In this document: positions 5,476 through 23,163 of the stretch, one piece after another
Numbering within the stretch: position 1 is the first letter of the stretch
Layout of the letters: every line of letters begins with the position of its first letter
Origin: a virus
Direction: 5' to 3' (one strand)
Length of the DNA stretch: 64,000 nt
Virus record (IMG/VR): IMGVR_UViG_3300044981_000021
Location: 36,881-100,880 of that record
Notes under the pieces: model-generated
The model's database searches: none
Told to the model about the DNA's origin: nothing
Seen by the model: only the letters and a program-made list of their open reading frames with translations
Position numbers and translations under genes: made by a program

Positions 5476-7122
5476 CTAAAATGGTGTCTGGTCGTTAACC
5501 GCATTTCGTTTCCGCCCATTACTAGGCGGGGTGTACTCGATACGCTCTAGTTTAATCGCTCCATCGGCTGTGTCAAGAACTTTAAAAAAGAATTTCTCCG
5601 GAGCCATCGCGGCCTTGATTTCGCAAAGGAACTCTCGTGTCCACGTGTCCTCATCCTCAACCCTGATTCCCAATACGAATTCTGCATATCCAGCGATTGA
5701 TCCCGCCCCGCGTATGCTTTCTGTCAGTGTGGCGTCGGCAGTTTTGTTGCTGTGGTGAATCACGCATATAGATGCCCCGGTTTCGTTTTGGATGTGATTT
5801 AACACATCAATTACGCCTTTTTGCATGTCGGTCGGGGAATTCTCGTCTTGTCCATGCAAGACCCGCATAACGTCTAAGATGAGAAATTCGGCTTGATGAT
5901 GCTTTAAATCTGCAATCAATTTGGTTACGTCTTCGGGATAATCGAGCATTATTTTAGGACGTAACCCCTTAGCGTTTACAAATAACCAACCATCTAGATC
6001 GGCGGCAGTCAATTGGCGATGAGCGCGGAGTTTCTTGAGTCTCCACTGAGTTAATGCGGCATTATCCTCGCGGCTCACTAGCGCGACCTTGGCTCGCTTA
6101 GGAACGAAGAAATCTAGCCATTTCTGCCCACTCGCGATAGCCAACGCCATGTCTAGTGAAACGATAGACTTTCCAGCCTTAGGACGAGCCACAAAAATTC
6201 CATTGGAGCCGCGTTGAATAACGCCTTCGATAAGCCAATCAATATATTCCGCCGACCGTTCCTCGAATTGAGTAATAGTCATAAACAGCGTGGCCGTTGG
6301 TTCTTCTGGTTTCCATGTCGGCGTATTCTTGACCAATTGAATCAGTTCTTGAACGGTATGCGCGGCGAGATAGTCCGACACGTCTTTTACGTCAGGACAG
6401 GAAACAATCTTCACACCATTGGCATACCGATAGACGGAGTTAGCTACTTGGAGGGCGTGGGCACGACCGGGATCGTCGTTGTCCTGAAAGATGATGACTT
6501 TTTTGCCCGTAAAAAATGGAGAAAAGCGGTCCTGCCATTTTCCTGCCCCTCGCGGCGAAGTCGTCGCCGTAAACTTCCCGCTTTGATTGCGGAGTATAGT
6601 TCGCAAATTATCGGCATCGCGTTCCCCTTCCGCGCAAGCTACCTCGCTCGCGCATATAATTTCATCCAAGTGATAGGGCACCATCGGAATGTCTTGCGTT
6701 TTATATTCCCACGTCCCATCGTCTTTTTTGTGGCGCTGCGTAAATCGCTTGCCTGGGTATCGAACGACTTGGAAGATTTCTTTGCCATTGGCGTCTACAT
6801 AGGAATAGATTGCTTCGGGTTCTTTCCCGGTCGATAGGAACAACTGCGGTTGGCCGACAATCTCGGCTATCTGCTTCAATGCCGCCTGTTTGTCGCATGA
6901 GGAAAATTTTTGCTCGAAATCTAAAATTCCACCCTTACCACACCCCGCATGACAAAACCATACCCCGGATTGCATGTTGACAGAAAATGCTGGAGTGTTA
7001 GTGTTGTCGTGGAATGGACATAGCGCCATCCATCCGCGTCCAGACCTGCGCAGCCTTCGATCTTGAAGTCTTGCTTCAAAAAAGCGAGTGAATTCCTGTT
7101 CTGATAGCTCGCTTATTCGCAA
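5476..7122 (-). CDS. Primase-helicase (CHC2 zinc finger + TOPRIM + RecA-like AAA_25 helicase)
   Basis: CPFH..WFCHAGCG; EGERD and DNDDPG TOPRIM motifs; Walker A ARPKAGKS, Walker B LILD, IHHSNK, RGAGS. Confidence 0.9.
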   Translation of the reverse strand: MRISELSEQEFTRFFEARLQDRRLRRSGRGWMALCPFHDNTNTPAFSVNMQSGVWFCHAGCGKGGILDFEQKFSSCDKQAALKQIAEIVGQPQLFLSTGKEPEAIYSYVDANGKEIFQVVRYPGKRFTQRHKKDDGTWEYKTQDIPMVPYHLDEIICASEVACAEGERDADNLRTILRNQSGKFTATTSPRGAGKWQDRFSPFFTGKKVIIFQDNDDPGRAHALQVANSVYRYANGVKIVSCPDVKDVSDYLAAHTVQELIQLVKNTPTWKPEEPTATLFMTITQFEERSAEYIDWLIEGVIQRGSNGIFVARPKAGKSIVSLDMALAIASGQKWLDFFVPKRAKVALVSREDNAALTQWRLKKLRAHRQLTAADLDGWLFVNAKGLRPKIMLDYPEDVTKLIADLKHHQAEFLILDVMRVLHGQDENSPTDMQKGVIDVLNHIQNETGASICVIHHSNKTADATLTESIRGAGSIAGYAEFVLGIRVEDEDTWTREFLCEIKAAMAPEKFFFKVLDTADGAIKLERIEYTPPSNGRKRNAVNDQTPF

Positions 7123-15441: not shown

Positions 15442-16005
15442 TTATTCCGTGTCGAACTCAACCATTTCTTCGCCCTTGAATTTTACTTGTTGAAGAATTT
15501 CTAGTGGAATCAATCCATTCCTATATGCGACGATTACGCGATATTCTTCGAGTTTCAACTGACCCTTGAGTTTGTTGCACTCTAGGCAACAAGGAACTTT
15601 GAGTTTTCCGCCAAGACTTCGGGGCGTAACGTGGTCCTTGGTCCTAATAGCGTCCTTGGTGCAGTCTGTCATGTCCCGTCCGCAGTAAAAGCAACTGCTG
15701 TAATACTGCCGTGGCGTGATATTCGGGAAAAGCTTAATTCCAGGAATTTTGGGGGCCGATAACTGTATCGACTTAGGTTTTTTATCAGGAGCTAGGCGAA
15801 TAAGGTGTTTTTCGCCAACGGTATGCGGAAGTACACAGGTTCCGTTCGGAGCAACACATTCTACTGGTTCTACCGAAATACCGCCACGGGGAACATTTCC
15901 AAAATGATATTGGAAGCGTTGATCGGCTTCTGTGATATCTTCGGCATCACAGGCAAGAATAATCTTGCCCCCGCTATAGCGGTCGCGATAGATGTAGTGC
16001 TTCAT
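15442..16005 (-). CDS. HNH endonuclease with extra N-terminal domain
   Basis: CFYCG..TKDHVTPRSLGG..CCLECNKLKG. Confidence 0.85.
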   Translation of the reverse strand: MKHYIYRDRYSGGKIILACDAEDITEADQRFQYHFGNVPRGGISVEPVECVAPNGTCVLPHTVGEKHLIRLAPDKKPKSIQLSAPKIPGIKLFPNITPRQYYSSCFYCGRDMTDCTKDAIRTKDHVTPRSLGGKLKVPCCLECNKLKGQLKLEEYRVIVAYRNGLIPLEILQQVKFKGEEMVEFDTE

Positions 16006-16677: not shown

Positions 16678-16753
16678 TGGTGGGACGGGCCAGAATCGGA
16701 CTGGCTACCACATGGGCTTCAGCCATGCACTCTACCGGCGAGTTCCACGTCCC
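16678..16753 (-). tRNA. tRNA-Phe(GAA)
   Basis: CATGG-CTGAAGC-CCATG, CCA. Confidence 0.85.
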
Positions 16754-17522: not shown

Positions 17523-17597
17523 TGGAGCTGAACGTCAGGCTTCAACTGACATCTCCGAATTCACAAGATTCGTGTTCTGGTTTTGAACTAGTTCAGC
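17523..17597 (-). tRNA. tRNA-Thr(TGT)
   Basis: CGAAT-CTTGTGA-ATTCG, CCA. Confidence 0.85.
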
Positions 17598-18293
17598 AAT
17601 TTCTCTAAATTCTCTTGTCCGTCTTTTCTTTCGCCTAGAAGCACTTGCTTGTTTATTTCGTGATCGAAACGTGGGCGTCAAGGCGTGGCAATTAGGGCAT
17701 AGCAATTTCAGGTTTTCGTCCTTATTGTTGTCGGCGTCTCCGTTGATATGTTCTATTTCTAGGGGTATTGGTTTTTGCAGCCACTCGGTCAAGCCGCAAC
17801 TTTCGCACCGATACCCACGAGTTCTAAATAAATATCCACGTAATGCATGACTAGTCCTAGCCGTTTCGGGAGAAGTGGTTAGACAATAAATCCGCATTCC
17901 GTAACACGAATTACAGAATTTCCTATGCGTCGAGCACGGCGTTCCACAATGTTCACACTGTCCGGACGTGAGTGCTCGCTTGCGGCGATGTTTTAAGTAA
18001 CACGCCCGACTACACGACCGCTGCTTTCGCTTCTCGTATGACATCTTTTCGCCACAATAAATACAACGCTTATTAGCAGCTTTTTCTCTAGCCGCCAAGG
18101 AAATCCCAACTCTAAATGCAGTCAATTTGTCTTTGGCTGCCAACCATCCGATGCGCCCAACATCTTCCCTCGACATTATCGGCTGTTCCCGTGGATCGTT
18201 TGTGTATATTCTTCGTGTTGTTTTTAAGGTGCGATCCCGATTCTTGTAATACCACCTGCGACGAGCCGCACGCCTTTTATCTTGGTTGCGCAT
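17535..18293 (-). CDS. HNH endonuclease
   Basis: CESCG..LEIEHINGDADNNKDENLKLLCPNCH; C-terminus overlaps tRNA-Thr(TGT). Confidence 0.9.
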   Translation of the reverse strand: MRNQDKRRAARRRWYYKNRDRTLKTTRRIYTNDPREQPIMSREDVGRIGWLAAKDKLTAFRVGISLAAREKAANKRCIYCGEKMSYEKRKQRSCSRACYLKHRRKRALTSGQCEHCGTPCSTHRKFCNSCYGMRIYCLTTSPETARTSHALRGYLFRTRGYRCESCGLTEWLQKPIPLEIEHINGDADNNKDENLKLLCPNCHALTPTFRSRNKQASASRRKKRRTREFREIAELVQNQNTNLVNSEMSVEA

Positions 18294-19253: not shown

Positions 19254-19327
19254 TGGCCCCGAGTAGTTGAATCGAACAACTGTTGGCTGATCCAGAGTCA
19301 GCAGTCTTGCCACTAAACGAACTCGGA
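19254..19327 (-). tRNA. tRNA-Gln(CTG)
   Basis: GCTGA-CTCTGGA-TCAGC, G73-CCA. Confidence 0.9.
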
Positions 19328-19332
19328 AATCT

Positions 19333-19366
19333 TGGAGCCGGGAGTATTTTAATGAGCTATCCCGGC
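19333..19366 (-). ncRNA. tRNA minihelix / internally deleted tRNA ending in CCA
   Basis: GCCGGGA-TAGCTCATTAAAATAC-TCCCGGC-T-CCA. Confidence 0.55.
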
Positions 19367-19428
19367 GCGCTCACTCGCGGAGCGTTGTCTGAAAAGGCGA
19401 TCAACCCTCCAGTCGCAACGACGCAAAA

Positions 19429-19502
19429 TGGAAGGGAGTCTGAGAATCGGACTCAGGTCTGATGATCCAAAGTCATCGGCATTGCCATTATGCGAACTCC
19501 CT
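19429..19502 (-). tRNA. tRNA-Gln(TTG)
   Basis: GATGA-CTTTGGA-TCATC, CCA. Confidence 0.9.
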
Positions 19503-19686: not shown

Positions 19687-19831
19687 AAATCCTTAACTCA
19701 AATGGCCCAAAGCGGTAACTTGTGTACGGGCTATATCCCCACATAAGCGTCCCGTTCATGCGTAACGTCTTGCCAAAACTCCATGCATCCCAATATGCGT
19801 GCCACGTTACGAGTTTGGAGCCGATAGTCAT
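19676..19831 (-). CDS. 51-aa aromatic-rich protein
   Basis: MTIGSKLVTWHAYWDAWSFG..; AAGGA RBS overlapping the tRNA-Glu CCA end. Confidence 0.45.
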   Translation of the reverse strand: MTIGSKLVTWHAYWDAWSFGKTLRMNGTLMWGYSPYTSYRFGPFELRIYEA

Positions 19832-19838
19832 AAATCCT

Positions 19839-19913
19839 TGGTAGGGCCAACGGAAGTCGAATCCGTATTCACGCCTTGAAAGAGCGTTTACCTAGCCGTT
19901 AGTAGATGGCCCC
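19839..19913 (-). tRNA. tRNA-Glu(TTC)
   Basis: ACGCT-CTTTCAA-GGCGT, CCA. Confidence 0.9.
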
Positions 19914-19919
19914 AAAACT

Positions 19920-20264
19920 TTATACGGTCGCAGAATTGGCTATCACGGCCTCCGCGTATTCCACTAAGGGGCCATAACGCCTGCTATATCTCTTGTTTTT
20001 GCTTTGCTCCTTTGGCGTTGCCCAACGAACATTGCCACGTTCGTAATGACCGTTATTGTTTATCCTTTCTAGTGTTGAACCCTCCGGCCTCGGGCCTAAT
20101 TCTTACATGAATTCGCCAAACGAAACAAATCTAAATTCTATCCCCCTGCCGCCGTAGTACCTGAAATCTTCGCAATTACTATTCATGCAACGGTATCGCG
20201 CATGGTCGAAAGATTTATATTCCCGCTTAAATTGTTTCGTTAAGCCACTTCCCGAAAATCTCAC
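19920..20264 (-). pseudogene. HNH-type homing endonuclease with an in-frame TAA
   Basis: YYGGRGIEFRFVSFGEFM*ELGPRPEGSTLERINNNGHYERGNVRWAT; TAA at 20105-20103; same family as 47598-48365. Confidence 0.75.
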
Positions 20265-20285
20265 CGTTAATCTCCTAAAAAACGT

Positions 20286-20313
20286 TTAGCCCCGCATTGT
20301 TTTTCGGGGCTAA
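20286..20313. terminator. Terminator-like hairpin
   Basis: TTAGCCCCG...CGGGGCTAA. Confidence 0.45.
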
Positions 20314-20432
20314 TTGAACTACGTTAAATGTACTTTCCCCGATTGTTTATGGCGTACCTTCCCCCGCCTGCCATTGGGCTGGTGTCGGGAAGCAATCGGC
20401 ATGAAATTGAACATTCATTGGTTAATGAAACA

Positions 20433-20462
20433 AGCCTAAAGCATGTCTGCTTGTTCTGTCAA
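20433..20462 (-). promoter_or_regulatory. Sigma70-like promoter inside the tRNA array
   Basis: TTGACA-18 nt-TAGGCT. Confidence 0.5.
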
Positions 20463-20470
20463 GAAAAAAG

Positions 20471-20547
20471 TGGAAGGCCGGATCGGACTTGAACCGACAA
20501 CCTCAAGATTCGGAATCTTGCGCGAGTTCCCTTTTCGCTTCCGGCCC
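20471..20547 (-). tRNA. tRNA-Arg(CCG)
   Basis: CAAGA-TTCCGAA-TCTTG, CCA. Confidence 0.85.
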
Positions 20548-20550
20548 AAA

Positions 20551-20627
20551 TGGTCCTAGCGACAGGATTCAAACCTGCATTCAACTGTTTAGGAAACAGT
20601 GCCGTTGTTCAGTTACGGAACGCTAGG
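20551..20627 (-). tRNA. tRNA-Arg(CCT)
   Basis: ACTGT-TTCCTAA-ACAGT, CCA. Confidence 0.85.
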
Positions 20628-20631
20628 AAAA

Positions 20632-20932
20632 TCGGCCACAAGTCAAACTGCAAACTTTCGCTAGCTACTTCGTCCTTCTGCGCTGGGCCACTCACGACGG
20701 TTAAGCTCTATCTATCCCAGCCTTCGGTCGGCTCTTTCCTCCGATTAGGGGCGTCATCTTCCAGACTTTTTGCCAACTTCGTTGGTTCCACTAGAACCAT
20801 TACTGGATTGCATCTAACTTCGCCAACGCGACACTAGATCGACTTTCGGGAGCGGGTTAGATACCCGTTGCTTGGCCAAGCATCCCCTCGGCTAGTCGTC
20901 CAACCGGCAAGCGGCAGTTTTTTCGTGGCCGA
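20632..20932 (-). ncRNA. Candidate ~300-nt multibranched ncRNA
   Basis: Closed by TCGGCCAC/GTGGCCGA and AAACTGC/GCAGTTT, with many internal hairpins, between two tRNA-Arg genes. Confidence 0.55.
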
Positions 20933-20953
20933 AATAAATATAACACGGGAAAA

Positions 20954-21031
20954 TGGTGCAGGATAGTGGACTCGAACCACTCGCCTCGGCTTTCGTAGAA
21001 CCGCGCTCTAGTCCTGATGAGCTAATCCTGC
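20954..21031 (-). tRNA. tRNA-Arg(ACG)
   Basis: CGGTT-CTACGAA-AGCCG, CCA. Confidence 0.9.
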
Positions 21032-21036
21032 AAACT

Positions 21037-21111
21037 TGGGAGCGCATAACCGGGTCGAACGGTTGTCTCTTAGGTAGAAGCCAAGGCTCTGTCCTGTTGA
21101 GCTAATGCGCC
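21037..21111 (-). tRNA. tRNA-Arg(TCT)
   Basis: CTTGG-CTTCTAC-CTAAG, CCA. Confidence 0.85.
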
Positions 21112-21118
21112 ACAATTC

Positions 21119-21194
21119 TGGTGGAAGTGAGACGATTCAAACGTCCATCGGCCTACTTAAAAGGTAGGGGTCTTAATCGTTAGACGACACTTCC
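21119..21194 (-). tRNA. tRNA-Lys(TTT)
   Basis: CCTAC-CTTTTAA-GTAGG, CCA. Confidence 0.85.
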
Positions 21195-21199
21195 AAAAC

Positions 21200-21274
21200 T
21201 GGTGGAGCGCAATGGACTCGAACCATTGTTTCCCGAGTAAGGGTCGGGTTGCCTAGCCACTGACGGAGCGCTCC
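21200..21274 (-). tRNA. tRNA-Lys(CTT)
   Basis: CCCGA-CCCTTAC-TCGGG, CCA. Confidence 0.85.
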
Positions 21275-21280
21275 TAAAAA

Positions 21281-21358
21281 TGGTGCGGAATATTGGAATT
21301 GAACCAATGGCCTCGTCCTTATCAGAGACGCGCTCTAAGCCAACTGAGCTAATTCCGC
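21281..21358 (-). tRNA. tRNA-Ile(GAT)
   Basis: CGTCT-CTGATAA-GGACG, canonical arms. Confidence 0.92.
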
Positions 21359-21359
21359 A

Positions 21360-21435
21360 TGGTGCCGGAGCCAAGACTCGAACTTGGGACTTCCTGCTTG
21401 TAGGGCAGGCACTCTGGCCGCTGAGTTAATCCGGC
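21360..21435 (-). tRNA. tRNA-Val(TAC)
   Basis: CCTGC-CCTACAA-GCAGG, CCA. Confidence 0.9.
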
Positions 21436-21437
21436 AC

Positions 21438-21512
21438 TGGTTGAGGGCGATGGAATCGAACCATCCCGAAACAGTGTTTATAAGACGCCGCAGCGCTCCA
21501 GTGCTGCCCTCA
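21438..21512 (-). tRNA. Atypical tRNA with TAT anticodon (Ile?)
   Basis: TGAGGGC/GCCCTCA acceptor, compact D arm, CGGCGT-CTTATAA-ACACTG, TTCGATT, A73-CCA. Confidence 0.7.
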
Positions 21513-21517
21513 AAATC

Positions 21518-21593
21518 TGGTACGAGTGGGAGGAATCGAACCTTCCGACACCGTGGTTATGGGCCACGTAATCTACCACTGATCTACACTCGC
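21518..21593 (-). tRNA. tRNA-Met/Ile2(CAT)
   Basis: CGTGG-CCCATAA-CCACG, A73-CCA. Confidence 0.85.
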
Positions 21594-21818
21594 TCAACTT
21601 AAACCGCCTACGCGCCATTTATCGTTGATTTGCGCGTATTCCTGCTCAATCTTTCCAACCCGAACCACGGTCCAACGGCGTTCATTCATAAGCGATTCTT
21701 CGTGGTCGAAGGTTACGACGTTACCGCGCTTTAATCTCCACGATGCATCTACCCATGCAGTCGTATGGCGAACACCGCCATTTACTTTACGCTCGAATTG
21801 GACTTGAACCATCCTCAT
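21594..21818 (-). CDS. Hypothetical protein
   Basis: 74-aa ORF filling the gap between tRNA-Asn and tRNA-CAT. Confidence 0.55.
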   Translation of the reverse strand: MRMVQVQFERKVNGGVRHTTAWVDASWRLKRGNVVTFDHEESLMNERRWTVVRVGKIEQEYAQINDKWRVGGLS

Positions 21819-21825
21819 AAAAATA

Positions 21826-21913
21826 TGGCTGGCACGAGAGGACTCGAACCTCCAGAGGGTTGCCCCACTTCATTAACAGTGAAGCCCGCTACCAAATTAC
21901 GGTTTACATGCCA
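21826..21913 (-). tRNA. tRNA-Asn(GTT) with a long variable arm
   Basis: CTTCA-CTGTTAA-TGAAG; V arm GGG-GCAA-CCC; G73-CCA. Confidence 0.85.
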
Positions 21914-21932
21914 ACGTTGTCTCCAAAACCAA

Positions 21933-21964
21933 ATGGGCCTTCAGGTTAAGTTTTGAAGGCCCAT
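21933..21964. terminator. Strong hairpin at the 5' boundary of the tRNA array
   Basis: ATGGGCCTTCA/TGAAGGCCCAT. Confidence 0.45.
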
Positions 21965-22107
21965 CAGGAAAGGAGGATGCAATGAAAATGAACTCTTATC
22001 CCGAACGCGCCCGCACGACTCGCATTCTAATGCGATTTCGCTTTTCGCGTTTAGGTATCAAGCTCATTGGTCTAATCTACATCAGCGATTTGGGAAAAGC
22101 AAGAAGA

Positions 22108-22362
22108 TTATTGAACACCATTCCAAGACTGCAATCCTCGCAATCCAGATTGGATATTACTAAATCCTCCGGTAATGGTTGGCGGCCAATATGGCGAAGT
22201 ATTTGGATAGCCGAACGGATATGGCTGAATCGTTGGCTGGGTTCTGTAGCGGCCACAAGTAGGACAATAACCACAATTAGGACAGACGCTCCCAAAATGT
22301 TGTGCATAATCTGGGTTGATTCCTTGGGGTTGATAATTTGCTGATTGAAAATCGTTGTACAT
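22108..22362 (-). CDS. Hypothetical Pro/Tyr-rich protein with CPxCG motifs
   Basis: CPNCGYCPTCG. Confidence 0.45.
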   Translation of the reverse strand: MYNDFQSANYQPQGINPDYAQHFGSVCPNCGYCPTCGRYRTQPTIQPYPFGYPNTSPYWPPTITGGFSNIQSGLRGLQSWNGVQ

Positions 22363-22374
22363 GCCGTAATTATA

Positions 22375-23163
22375 CTATTTCCAGGGTGACCCAGAGTGGA
22401 TAATCTTCAAATCGGTTTGCGGATCATCGAGAACTTGCAATGGCATCCAAAAGAACCCCGATAAGCCCCATCCCGAACCCCACGAATTTTGAATCAATAC
22501 GGCGGGAGGGCAACCAACGGGTCGAAGCGTGGGCGTTTCTCCAACGTCGCATCCAACCATTAAAACTTCGTGCCCTCCCATGACTTCTTCCCCTTGGGCG
22601 GGAATGGGCATAATCCCCGTTTGCGCTAGTTCGTCACTCTCGAAAGATGCATAAACCGTGAATCCAACCTCGATTGGCCATGGAGTTGGGTCGCCAATAA
22701 CACTTAACGCTGTTTGCGATCCCGTTAGGCCATGATAAGCGCCAAGTCTAAATTGTGCGGCATTGGCATCCTGCGAAGTTGTTGGCTTTTCGATATCCCC
22801 AGCGATATATGGGTAGACGGATAATTCGCAGCACCCACTGACGATCATAGTATTACAGAGCGTTGTACCATCTGCTCCAACGTCGTTTGGAAAGTTGCCT
22901 TGGGCGATTAATTCCTTGGCGTAGGTATATTGCGGAGAGAAAATTGGGGATGCGTTGAGATATTTGCGATGAATTAATTCATTGGCCGATGTCCCGGCAT
23001 GGCCCGTACACGAACCCTCTTGGCCTTGGTCTTTTATGGGGCCACACCAAATTCTTAGATCGACCACGGGAGAAGCAATCGTGGCACGAGAAAGCATTCT
23101 ATGGGCGGGAAGCGGCGCGGGGATATTGCGTCCGTAGCGCCGCCCAATTGTGCTGATAGCCAT
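22375..23163 (-). CDS. Papain-like (C1) cysteine peptidase
   Basis: IKDQGQEGSCTGHA (Q, C), GGHEV (H), IQNSWG (N). Confidence 0.9.
   Translation of the reverse strand: MAISTIGRRYGRNIPAPLPAHRMLSRATIASPVVDLRIWCGPIKDQGQEGSCTGHAGTSANELIHRKYLNASPIFSPQYTYAKELIAQGNFPNDVGADGTTLCNTMIVSGCCELSVYPYIAGDIEKPTTSQDANAAQFRLGAYHGLTGSQTALSVIGDPTPWPIEVGFTVYASFESDELAQTGIMPIPAQGEEVMGGHEVLMVGCDVGETPTLRPVGCPPAVLIQNSWGSGWGLSGFFWMPLQVLDDPQTDLKIIHSGSPWK

What the first reader, a model, noticed from the sequence alone, without database searches (positions are those of the whole stretch)
20632..20932. Candidate ~300-nt multibranched ncRNA among the tRNA-Arg genes
Seen (- strand): stacked closing helices TCGGCCAC/GTGGCCGA, AAACTGC/GCAGTTT and CTAGC/GCTAG enclose GCTTG/CAAGC, CGGGT/ACCCG, ATCTAG/TTAGAT, CCAG/CTGG, GGTTC/GAACC, CCAAC/GTTGG and GCTGGG/CCCAGC, with purine-rich linkers (GAGGAAAG, GCGAAAG). 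It fills nearly the whole gap between two tRNAs, so tRNA processing would release it. I cannot match it to tmRNA (no tRNA-like ends) or RNase P RNA (no GAAAGUCC). Inference: best candidate in the window for an undescribed large RNA or ribozyme.
Basis: partly seen in the sequence, partly recalled or inferred. Interest (0 to 1): 0.75.

Follow-up and report, generated by a model that had tools for sequence, protein, structure and literature searches.

The report
New structured RNA in phage tRNA array
A ~290-nt non-coding RNA between two arginine tRNA genes of a 101-kb soil phage is real: it accumulates as a discrete RNA in soil metatranscriptomes, a second phage keeps its base-pairing through compensatory changes, and it matches no described RNA family, so its function is still open.

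Summary
The stretch is a real, expressed, structured non-coding RNA of an undescribed family. It fills the gap between tRNA-Arg(ACG) and tRNA-Arg(CCU) in a 25-tRNA array of a 100,880-bp phage with direct terminal repeats.

- **Known families:** Rfam 15 gives no match, even at E 10.
- **Expression:** three soil metatranscriptome runs each hold a contig identical to window ~20635-20922 and nothing from the flanking 2.3 kb.
- **Homolog:** a second complete phage (103,362 bp, locus L178) carries a 268-nt copy in the same slot (197 bits, E 7e-66).
- **Covariation:** the two copies differ at 56 aligned positions. Thirty of these form 15 base pairs changed on both sides, in 8 helices. Slid controls give 0-1.
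- **Coding:** none. Substitutions fall 20/18/18 by codon position, and no indel length is a multiple of three.

It replaces three of his core helices and adds a pseudoknot.

The RNA is absent from a third phage with a syntenic array and from 37 related viral records.

Function is unknown. The closest analogues are ROOL and GOLLD, abundant phage RNAs near tRNA islands. An RNase P-like or tRNA-binding role is possible but unsupported.

The scan had noted this same stretch once before, in the same genome and not on other DNA.

The parts
20954..21031 (-). tRNA-Arg(ACG), directly upstream of the RNA
   Evidence: ARAGORN; Rfam tRNA 53.4 bits
20933..20953 (-). 21-nt AU-rich 5' spacer. It holds TGTTATATT (20937-20945), which resembles an extended -10 promoter, 5-6 nt before P1. 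The motif is kept as TGCTATATT in L178.
   Evidence: Sequence; spacer identity 17/21. Promoter function is inferred only; the sigma-70 scan found no full promoter here.
20632..20932 (-). The structured RNA, 301 nt from the first to the last base of P1. RNA position = 20954 minus window coordinate.
   Evidence: RNA contigs 20635-20922, 20637-20911 and 20636-20905 with 0 differences. Homolog L178:6798-7065, 197 bits. 97.9% of cells paired and 15 compensatory pairs.
20923..20932 (-). P1, 5' strand (pos 22-31); pairs with 20632-20641
   Evidence: 10 pairs; C-G becomes U-A in L178; end duplex better than all 2000 shuffles
20632..20641 (-). P1, 3' strand (pos 313-322)
   Evidence: As above. RNA contigs of three runs stop at 20635-20637 with no loose end.
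20910..20920 (-). P2 and P2a, 5' strands (pos 34-44); they pair with 20645-20651 and 20659-20662
   Evidence: P2 has 2 compensatory pairs and P2a has 1
20645..20662 (-). P2 and P2a 3' strands with the conserved linker AAAGTTT (pos 292-309)
   Evidence: An alternative pairing of pos 289-294 with 177-182 also has one compensatory pair.
20889..20906 (-). Hairpin H1 (pos 48-65, loop ACGA)
   Evidence: 7 pairs, 2 of them compensatory (C-G and G-C both become A-U)
20847..20888 (-). Variable region (pos 66-107) with two hairpins found only in the window copy. About 34 nt of it are absent in L178, and a metatranscriptome variant has an unrelated hairpin here.
   Evidence: Alignment A3; loose ends beyond 20846
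20780..20841 (-). Central arm. It comprises a small hairpin C0 (pos 113-125, loop CTAGT), then C1 (126-131/169-174), C2 (136-141/159-164) and C3 (142-144/151-153). It also has a purine-rich 4x4 internal loop and a conserved ATGGT bulge.
   Evidence: C1 has 2 and C2 has 2 compensatory pairs. This is the best-conserved part in the RNA variants.
20752..20757 (-). Helix X, 5' strand (pos 197-202, ATGACG); pairs with 20694-20699
   Evidence: Three consecutive pairs changed on both sides in L178 and in the RNA variant, giving GAAACG/CGTTTC
20694..20699 (-). Helix X, 3' strand (pos 255-260, CGTCGT)
   Evidence: As above; 5 of 3000 simulated variants (substitution sites moved, new bases random) did as well
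20728..20744 (-). Hairpin He (pos 210-226). A 4-pair stem closes the conserved 9-nt loop AGGAAAG(A/C)G.
   Evidence: Stem TCGG/CCGA becomes CCCG/CGGG, 2 compensatory pairs. GAGGAAAG occurs only 3 times in the 64-kb window on both strands.
20716..20721 (-). Helix W, 5' strand (GCTGGG, pos 233-238). It pairs with 20682-20687 (CCCAGC) and crosses helix X, forming a pseudoknot.
   Evidence: Invariant in both copies, so it is untested by covariation. Pairing is inferred from energy.
20700..20715 (-). Conserved single-stranded segment ATAGAT..AGCTTAAC (pos 239-254). In L178 and in the RNA variant it reads AAGCTT, a 6-nt palindrome.
   Evidence: This segment was the search pattern that found L178.
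20628..20631 (-). TTTT between P1 and the next tRNA; L178 has TATTTT at the same place
20551..20627 (-). tRNA-Arg(CCU), directly downstream. It is 88% identical to the L178 copy, more than most neighbouring tRNAs (60-74%).

Best explanation
This is a gene for a stable, highly structured non-coding RNA of about 270-300 nt that belongs to an undescribed family carried by a small group of ~100-kb soil phages.

**Shown**
- It lies on the same strand as the tRNAs, in a fixed slot between tRNA-Arg(ACG) and tRNA-Arg(CCU).
- It accumulates in soil RNA as a discrete species, while its flanks do not.
- Its fold is under selection. The fold has three stacked closing helices, a 5' hairpin, a variable insertion site, a long irregular central arm, and a 3' domain. 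In the 3' domain a six-pair helix crosses a second helix and encloses a hairpin with an invariant AGGAAAG loop.

**Inferred**
- It is made as part of the tRNA operon transcript, or from its own extended -10-like TGnTATATT motif.
- Its ends are set by the enzymes that cut out the neighbouring tRNAs: RNase P at the downstream tRNA, and RNase Z or RNase E behind the upstream one.
- The GC-rich closing stem protects it from exonucleases.
- It then acts in trans during infection as an RNA or RNA-protein particle, much as the abundant phage RNAs ROOL and GOLLD that also sit beside tRNA islands.

Its molecular target is not known. My best guess is that it acts on tRNA or translation, because of its fixed place among Arg tRNAs and its exposed AGGAA and TGGT motifs.
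For: **Expression.** Three soil metatranscriptome runs of three studies (two of them from 2016, perhaps one campaign, and one from 2020) each hold a contig with 0 differences to 20635-20922, 20637-20911 or 20636-20905. None holds anything else from 19800-22400, apart from a 45-nt tRNA-like piece with 4 differences. The uncovered flanks argue against DNA carry-over. One contig runs into an Illumina read-1 adapter at 20922, in the orientation expected for a minus-strand RNA if the library is a dUTP-stranded one.

**Homolog.** L178:6798-7065 scores 197 bits (E 7e-66) in the same tRNA slot of a complete 103,362-bp phage.

**Structure.**
- 97.9% of cells are paired, and 15 pairs in 8 helices are changed on both sides, against 0-1 in six slid controls.
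- Seven helices carry 2 or more compensatory pairs, against a mean of about 0.5 and a maximum of 4 in 300 column permutations.
- Helix X was found first from the metatranscriptome variant alone, before L178 was known.
- G-U pairs in H1, X, C2 and P1 fit the minus strand only.

**Not coding.** Substitutions fall 20/18/18 by codon position, and indels are 1, 4, 25, 5, 1 and 1 nt.

**No known family.**

**Conservation.** The RNA is 83% identical over aligned positions, while 6 of 9 compared tRNAs are 60-74%.

**Analogy.** ROOL and GOLLD are phage RNAs 'often near tRNA islands', ROOL is as abundant as 16S rRNA, and GOLLD has a conserved 3' and a variable 5' region (PMC12286853).
Against: - Only two full-length copies and three partial variants are known, so each helix rests on few independent events.
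- The alignment used for counting was fitted to a structure model.
- The RNA evidence comes from assembled contigs. These cannot give exact ends, strand or level, and the exact copy could in principle come from another replicon that carries the same gene.
- The RNA is dispensable for this kind of tRNA array. A third phage (L100) has Arg(ACG) and Arg(CCU) 6 nt apart, and 37 related viral records lack it.
- No partner protein was found. RT, Ro60/TROVE and RtcB are absent from the genome.
- Nothing here shows action in trans.
- The sigma-70 scan found no full promoter or classical terminator at the ends.
Confidence: 0.62

Rival explanations
1. It is a cis-acting sensor that gates the two downstream tRNA-Arg genes. 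P1 followed by a U tract would act as a terminator, and a ligand or an uncharged tRNA-Arg(CCU) would control its formation, in a riboswitch-like or T-box-like way.
For: - The GC-rich P1 is followed by TTTT in both phages.
- RNA contigs of three runs stop at 20635-20637, inside the 3' strand of P1.
- Repeated segments (ATCTAG twice, GTTGG twice) allow alternative pairings.
- The invariant loop has AGGAA, complementary to TTCCT in the anticodon loop of the next tRNA. A conserved bulge has TGGT, complementary to the ACCA end.
- Earlier notes of this scan propose leader-controlled tRNA blocks in the same array (e1-6012083, e1-6012090; not tested here).
Against: - There is no Rfam T-box or riboswitch match.
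- A terminator with a 280-nt structured 'loop' has no precedent that I know of.
- The terminator scan finds nothing here.
- The TGGT bulge is far from P1.
- AGG and TGGT would each turn up by chance in roughly a third of RNAs of this size (my estimate).
- High steady-state abundance fits a stable product better than a leader.
Confidence: 0.13
2. It is a ribozyme that processes the phage pre-tRNAs, as a rewired, minimal RNase P-like RNA.
For: - It sits inside a tRNA operon whose genes encode CCA.
- The invariant loop GAGGAAAG is identical to the core of RNase P conserved region I (my knowledge), and that 8-mer occurs only 3 times in the 64-kb window on both strands.
- AAAG in that loop can pair with CTTT-like GCTTA 25 nt downstream, and one pair is gained in L178.
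- An internal-loop GGT resembles the L15 site that binds the RCCA end (my knowledge).
- The RNA is large and has a pseudoknot.
Against: - No RNase P model of Rfam gives any match at E up to 10 for either copy.
- GAGGAAAG is a hairpin loop closed by a covarying stem, not a junction leading into P4.
- The putative P4 has only 3-4 pairs, and its strands lie 25 nt apart instead of spanning the molecule.
- There is no specificity domain.
- Phages with the same array do without it.
Confidence: 0.06
3. It is a selfish or decaying DNA insertion, such as a small element with terminal inverted repeats or an intron or endonuclease remnant. Its transcript would accumulate only because it is cut out with the tRNAs and happens to fold stably.
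For: - It shows a clean presence/absence polymorphism. L100 has only TATTTT at the junction.
- The ends form an imperfect 20-nt inverted repeat.
- The array holds HNH endonuclease genes, and the genome holds a group I intron.
Against: - There is a single copy per genome.
- More than half of all substitutions between the two copies are compensatory, and they lie in internal helices, not only at the ends.
- Loops are conserved while stems vary.
- The Rfam group I model finds another intron in this genome at 68 bits but nothing here.
- No target-site duplication is visible.
Confidence: 0.06
4. It is a chance set of complementary segments in an ordinary spacer.
For: The whole gap folds with z = -1.3 only.
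Against: Expression, a 197-bit homolog and the covariation counts.
Confidence: 0.01

Closest known systems
ROOL RNA (Rfam ROOL; PMC12286853)
   Same: It is encoded by phages and prophages, often beside tRNA islands. It is very abundant in cells, has pseudoknots, and has no known protein partner or function.
   Different: ROOL is about twice as long and forms an RNA-only cage. Neither copy of this RNA gives any Rfam match. Whether this RNA forms oligomers is untested; only palindromic CTAG and AAGCTT motifs in conserved unpaired segments hint at it.
GOLLD RNA (Rfam GOLLD; PMC12286853)
   Same: It is phage-borne and found in or beside tRNA arrays, sometimes with tRNAs inside it. It has a conserved 3' region and a variable 5' region, as seen here (core and 3' domain conserved, pos 66-107 variable).
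   Different: GOLLD is over 800 nt, there is no sequence or model match, and the helices differ.
Stable RNAs 'species 1 and 2' (RNA C and D) of the phage T4 tRNA gene cluster (from my own knowledge, not checked in a paper here)
   Same: They are small stable RNAs of unknown function, co-transcribed with phage tRNAs and cut out by the tRNA-processing enzymes.
   Different: The T4 RNAs are about 120-140 nt, simpler, and unrelated in sequence.
Bacterial RNase P RNA
   Same: Both are linked to tRNA biology and are closed by stacked terminal helices followed by a 5' hairpin. Both contain the 8-mer GAGGAAAG, a GCTTA segment that can pair with it, and a pseudoknotted core.
   Different: There is no covariance-model match. 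The 8-mer is a hairpin loop here, there is no long-range P4, no specificity domain and no other conserved regions. Catalysis is untested.

Membership tests
Bacterial/archaeal RNase P RNA (Rfam RNaseP clan) | Match to a family covariance model | tested here: not met
   No match at E up to 10 for the window copy or the L178 copy
Bacterial/archaeal RNase P RNA (Rfam RNaseP clan) | Long-range P4 helix formed by conserved regions I and V, following directly after P3 | tested here: not met
   GAGGAAAG lies in a 9-nt hairpin loop whose stem covaries. Pairing to GCTTA is possible over only 3-4 pairs, 25 nt away.
Bacterial/archaeal RNase P RNA (Rfam RNaseP clan) | Cleaves pre-tRNA 5' leaders | not testable with these tools
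   Needs an in vitro cleavage assay
tmRNA | tRNA-like domain formed by the two ends, plus a tag reading frame | tested here: not met
   ARAGORN reports no tmRNA in the window. Rfam gives none. The ends form plain helices P1 and P2.
Group I intron | Match to Rfam RF00028 with the P3-P7 core | tested here: not met
   There is no match here at E up to 10. The same model finds an intron elsewhere in this genome at 68.3 bits. The element lies between complete tRNA genes.
ROOL / GOLLD | Match to the family model | tested here: not met
   No Rfam match
ROOL / GOLLD | Phage-encoded, beside tRNA genes, and abundant as RNA | tested here: met
   It lies inside a 25-tRNA array of a phage with terminal repeats. 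It is the only part of the 2.6-kb laid stretch that was assembled at full identity in three metatranscriptomes. The family description is from PMC12286853.
T-box riboswitch | Match to the Rfam T-box model, with Stem I, specifier loop and antiterminator bulge | tested here: not met
   No match. Only the short motifs AGG and TGGT are present.
Structured non-coding RNA (generic criteria) | Transcribed as a discrete species | tested here: met
   The evidence is from contigs only, so exact ends and strand are not proven.
Structured non-coding RNA (generic criteria) | Base pairs kept through compensatory change, with no coding signal | tested here: met
   This rests on two full sequences and partial variants, so it is not yet an R-scape-grade test.

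The most novel reading that the evidence does not exclude
The RNA is a new catalytic or tRNA-recognising RNA made by the phage for its own tRNA set. One form would be a rewired minimal RNase P-like ribozyme. The other would be an RNA that docks tRNA-Arg(CCU) through its invariant AGGAA loop and TGGT bulge. Either would let the phage process, protect or meter its tRNAs independently of the host.
Probability: 0.12. Interest if true: 0.92.

Novelty: new variant of a known kind. Interest (0 to 1): 0.7.

Why it matters
Bacterial and phage RNAs of this size with intricate conserved folds are rare. Those whose function is known are mostly ribozymes or cores of large RNA-protein machines. The unsolved ones (OLE, ROOL, GOLLD, raiA) are active research targets.

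This one is compact (270-300 nt), has a defined pseudoknotted model, and is abundant in natural soil RNA. It sits at a fixed place among arginine tRNAs in phages that carry near-complete tRNA sets. That makes it directly usable for SHAPE, cryo-EM, pre-tRNA cleavage and tRNA-binding tests.

It may also bear on why phages place large RNAs next to their tRNA genes.

Tried and rejected
**Known families and similarity searches**
- Rfam at gathering and at E 10 gave nothing for either copy.
- blastn of the RNA with and without flanks against 50,697 phage records and 72,556 plasmids found no match.

**Relatives found through neighbouring genes**
- I used the papain-like peptidase and the exonuclease.
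- This gave 166 loci (2.0 Mb) with no blastn or nhmmer hit and no covariance-model hit.
- Whole records of 37 such viruses also had none.
- These relatives turned out to be a poor guide, because the one phage that has the RNA lacks the peptidase.

**DNA pattern scans**
- Four core patterns (three plain 20-mers and one gapped pattern) in IMG/VR gave either nothing or one chance hit inside a coding region of L167.
- A 24-mer in genome contigs gave nothing.
- A gapped pattern there gave 9 hits, all chance by the model.
- The fifth viral pattern found L178.
- Short matches in L002 lie in coding sequence.

**Alternative readings**
- A coding reading is rejected.
I revised it after L178.
- Helix C1 survives in the RNA variant only with a one-base register slip.
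- Searches of the genome for reverse transcriptase, Ro60/TROVE and RtcB as possible partners found none.
- 'Relatives' cannot be drawn for a virus record.
- CGAAGT occurs three times in the RNA, which is only weakly unusual.
- The runs with small word shares that I did not lay (X4, X8, X9) say nothing.

Full report
**Setting.** The window is part of a complete viral record of 100,880 bp with direct terminal repeats. On the minus strand, ARAGORN finds 25 tRNA genes between 14027 and 21913, interspersed with HNH endonuclease genes. The finding occupies the 326-nt gap (20628-20953) between tRNA-Arg(ACG) and tRNA-Arg(CCU). I number the RNA as position = 20954 minus window coordinate.

**Check of the observation.**
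- The whole gap folds no better than shuffles (z = -1.3).
- The element from the first to the last base of its closing stem does fold better (z = -2.6, 0 of 150 shuffles).
- The duplex between its two ends is -34.0 kcal/mol, against -14.5 +/- 4.5, and none of 2000 shuffles reached it.
- No reading frame of note exists.
- Rfam 15 gives only the flanking tRNAs, at gathering score and at E up to 10. ARAGORN sees no tmRNA.

**Expression.** A search of public runs with 19800-22400 returned soil metagenomes and three soil metatranscriptomes that each held 8-9% of the words.
- When laid on the stretch, each RNA run holds one contig with no difference to the window: 20635-20922, 20637-20911 and 20636-20905.
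- Nothing else of the 2.6 kb is covered, apart from a 45-nt tRNA-like piece with 4 differences in one RNA run (also seen in the DNA run X3), which belongs to another organism.
- The search stretch was nine times longer than the element, so this confinement is not built in. The uncovered flanks argue against DNA carry-over.
- The three contigs stop within 3 nt of each other, inside the 3' strand of P1, with no loose end.
- One contig runs into an Illumina read-1 adapter at 20922, in the orientation expected for a minus-strand RNA if the library is dUTP-stranded.
- These are contigs, so ends, strand and level are hints only.
- Two of the runs date from 2016 and may be one campaign. The third is from 2020.

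**Variants in the same runs.** The runs also hold diverged copies.
- One lineage covers 20663-20846 (X6) and 20743-20846 (X7).
- Another has the central 120 nt replaced by 48 nt.
- A DNA contig shares only 20835-20909.
- Mapping the first lineage's differences onto the RNA showed that AUGACG (197-202) and CGUCGU (255-260) had become GAAACG and CGUUUC. That is three consecutive pairs changed on both sides.
- The stem under the GAGGAAAG loop had changed from UCGG/CCGA to CCCG/CGGG, including a one-base insertion that would break any reading frame.
- In a simulation that moved the substitution sites and drew new bases at random, 5 of 3000 variants produced a helix with three such pairs.

**Search for homologs.**
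- Relatives reached through the neighbouring peptidase and exonuclease genes gave 166 loci. None had a sequence match or a match to the covariance model R1. Thirty-seven whole viral records had no model match either.
- One relative, L100 (102,319 bp), has a syntenic array in the same gene order, but Arg(ACG) and Arg(CCU) are separated by only TATTTT. Two other complete ~102-kb relatives have no tRNAs at all.
- Four patterns from the conserved core found nothing real in IMG/VR, and two patterns in the prokaryote genome set also found nothing real.
- The last viral scan used the segment conserved between the window and the RNA variant (pos 229-253). It hit L178, a complete 103,362-bp phage with terminal repeats.
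- Model R1 scores L178:6798-7065 at 197 bits, E 7e-66. The match lies in the same slot, between tRNA-Arg(ACG) and tRNA-Arg(CCU) of a 24-tRNA array.
- That phage lacks the peptidase, which is why the protein-guided searches missed it.
- A second model built from both copies finds exactly one copy in each of these two genomes and none in 37 others.
- Rfam again gives nothing for the L178 copy.

**Structure.** The two copies are 79% identical on the model alignment and 83% in a global alignment. They differ at 56 aligned positions.
- RNAalifold and an exhaustive list of helices that pair in both sequences confirm P1, P2, P2a, H1, helix X and the hairpin He.
CGUUGG (126-131) pairs with CCAACG (169-174), and GUUAGA (136-141) pairs with UCUAGU (159-164), capped by a small hairpin. 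Each of these two helices has two pairs changed on both sides.
- ATCTAG/TTAGAT, GGTTC/GAACC and CCAAC/GTTGG lose pairs in L178.
- On the revised model, 97.9% of cells are paired, and 15 pairs in 8 helices changed on both sides. Six slid controls gave 0, 0, 1, 0, 0 and 0.
- Seven helices carry at least two compensatory pairs. In 300 permutations of the alignment columns the mean was about 0.5 and the maximum 4.
- Helix X crosses GCTGGG/CCCAGC. That helix is invariant and so untested, which leaves the pseudoknot inferred.
- Positions 66-107 are a variable site: two hairpins in the window copy, about 10 nt in L178, and a different hairpin in the RNA variant.
- Caveats: only two full sequences exist, the alignment was fitted to a model, L178 and the RNA variant share the changed state of helix X (probably one event), and helix C1 survives in the RNA variant only with a one-base slip.

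**Not coding.** Substitutions fall 20/18/18 over the three codon positions, and the indels are 1, 4, 25, 5, 1 and 1 nt.

**What it is and how it may work.** Shown: a discrete, abundant, minus-strand-compatible RNA of about 290 nt, with a conserved multi-domain fold, in a fixed place in the tRNA operon of two phages, and absent from a third.

Inferred: it is transcribed with the tRNAs, or from the conserved TGnTATATT 5-6 nt before P1. The sigma-70 scan saw no full promoter there. Its ends would come from the cuts that free the neighbouring tRNAs, and P1 would protect them.

Conserved unpaired elements are the likely working parts:
- the loop AGGAAAG(A/C)G
- the segment AUAGAU..AGCUUAA, which reads as the palindrome AAGCUU in two lineages
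- an AUGGU bulge
- a 4x4 purine internal loop
- the A-rich linkers

By analogy with ROOL and GOLLD (phage RNAs near tRNA islands, very abundant, function unknown, shown to be RNA-only assemblies; PMC12286853), I favour a stable trans-acting RNA particle. A cis sensor for the two downstream tRNA-Arg genes is a weaker alternative, and an RNase P-like ribozyme weaker still. The 8-mer GAGGAAAG equals the core of RNase P conserved region I and is rare in the window (3 copies). Here, however, it is a hairpin loop, and no RNase P model matches. No reverse transcriptase, Ro60 or RtcB gene is present.

**Novelty and verdict.** No described family matches. The literature searches found nothing on this RNA. 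One large catalogue of viral RNA candidates (PMC10690425) could not be checked motif by motif. I rate it a new family within a known kind, namely large structured phage RNAs beside tRNA genes. Interest is 0.7. The case for a real structured RNA is strong, while its function is open.

Noticed in passing
outside the window: G000 6621-6783, minus strand (L168:122-284): Rfam finds a group I intron here (RF00028, 68.3 bits, E 2e-16).
   Followed up: partly
window 16682-16752, minus strand: Rfam calls a tRNA here (32 bits) that ARAGORN does not list, so the array holds at least 26 tRNA genes.
   Followed up: no
window 15442-16005 and 17535-18293, minus strand: Two HNH endonuclease genes sit inside the tRNA array (PHROG matches, E 6e-9 and 2e-25).
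   Followed up: no
L100:12556-20766; records G001 and G002: The tRNA array is an accessory module. One ~102-kb relative has a 27-tRNA array in nearly the same order, while two other complete ~102-kb relatives have no tRNA at all.
   Followed up: partly
window 19254-19502 versus L178:3213-3361: The two tRNA-Gln genes are 95-97% identical between the two phages, and tRNA-Arg(CCU) is 88%. Most other tRNAs are only 60-74%. This is a mosaic pattern that suggests exchange of small cassettes.
   Followed up: no
window 21294-21338: A 45-nt part of tRNA-Ile(GAU) is matched, with 4 differences, by very abundant short contigs in a soil DNA run (depth 183) and an RNA run. They probably come from a bacterial tRNA-Ile and might hint at the host.
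   Followed up: no
window 22375-23163, minus strand: A papain-family (C1) cysteine peptidase gene lies next to the array. It has hundreds of 60-75% identical relatives in soil and peat viral contigs, but the phage that shares the RNA lacks it.
   Followed up: partly
window 20667-20672, 20776-20781, 20817-20822: CGAAGT occurs three times inside the RNA, and CGAAAGT twice more. This is only weakly more than chance by my estimate.
   Followed up: partly
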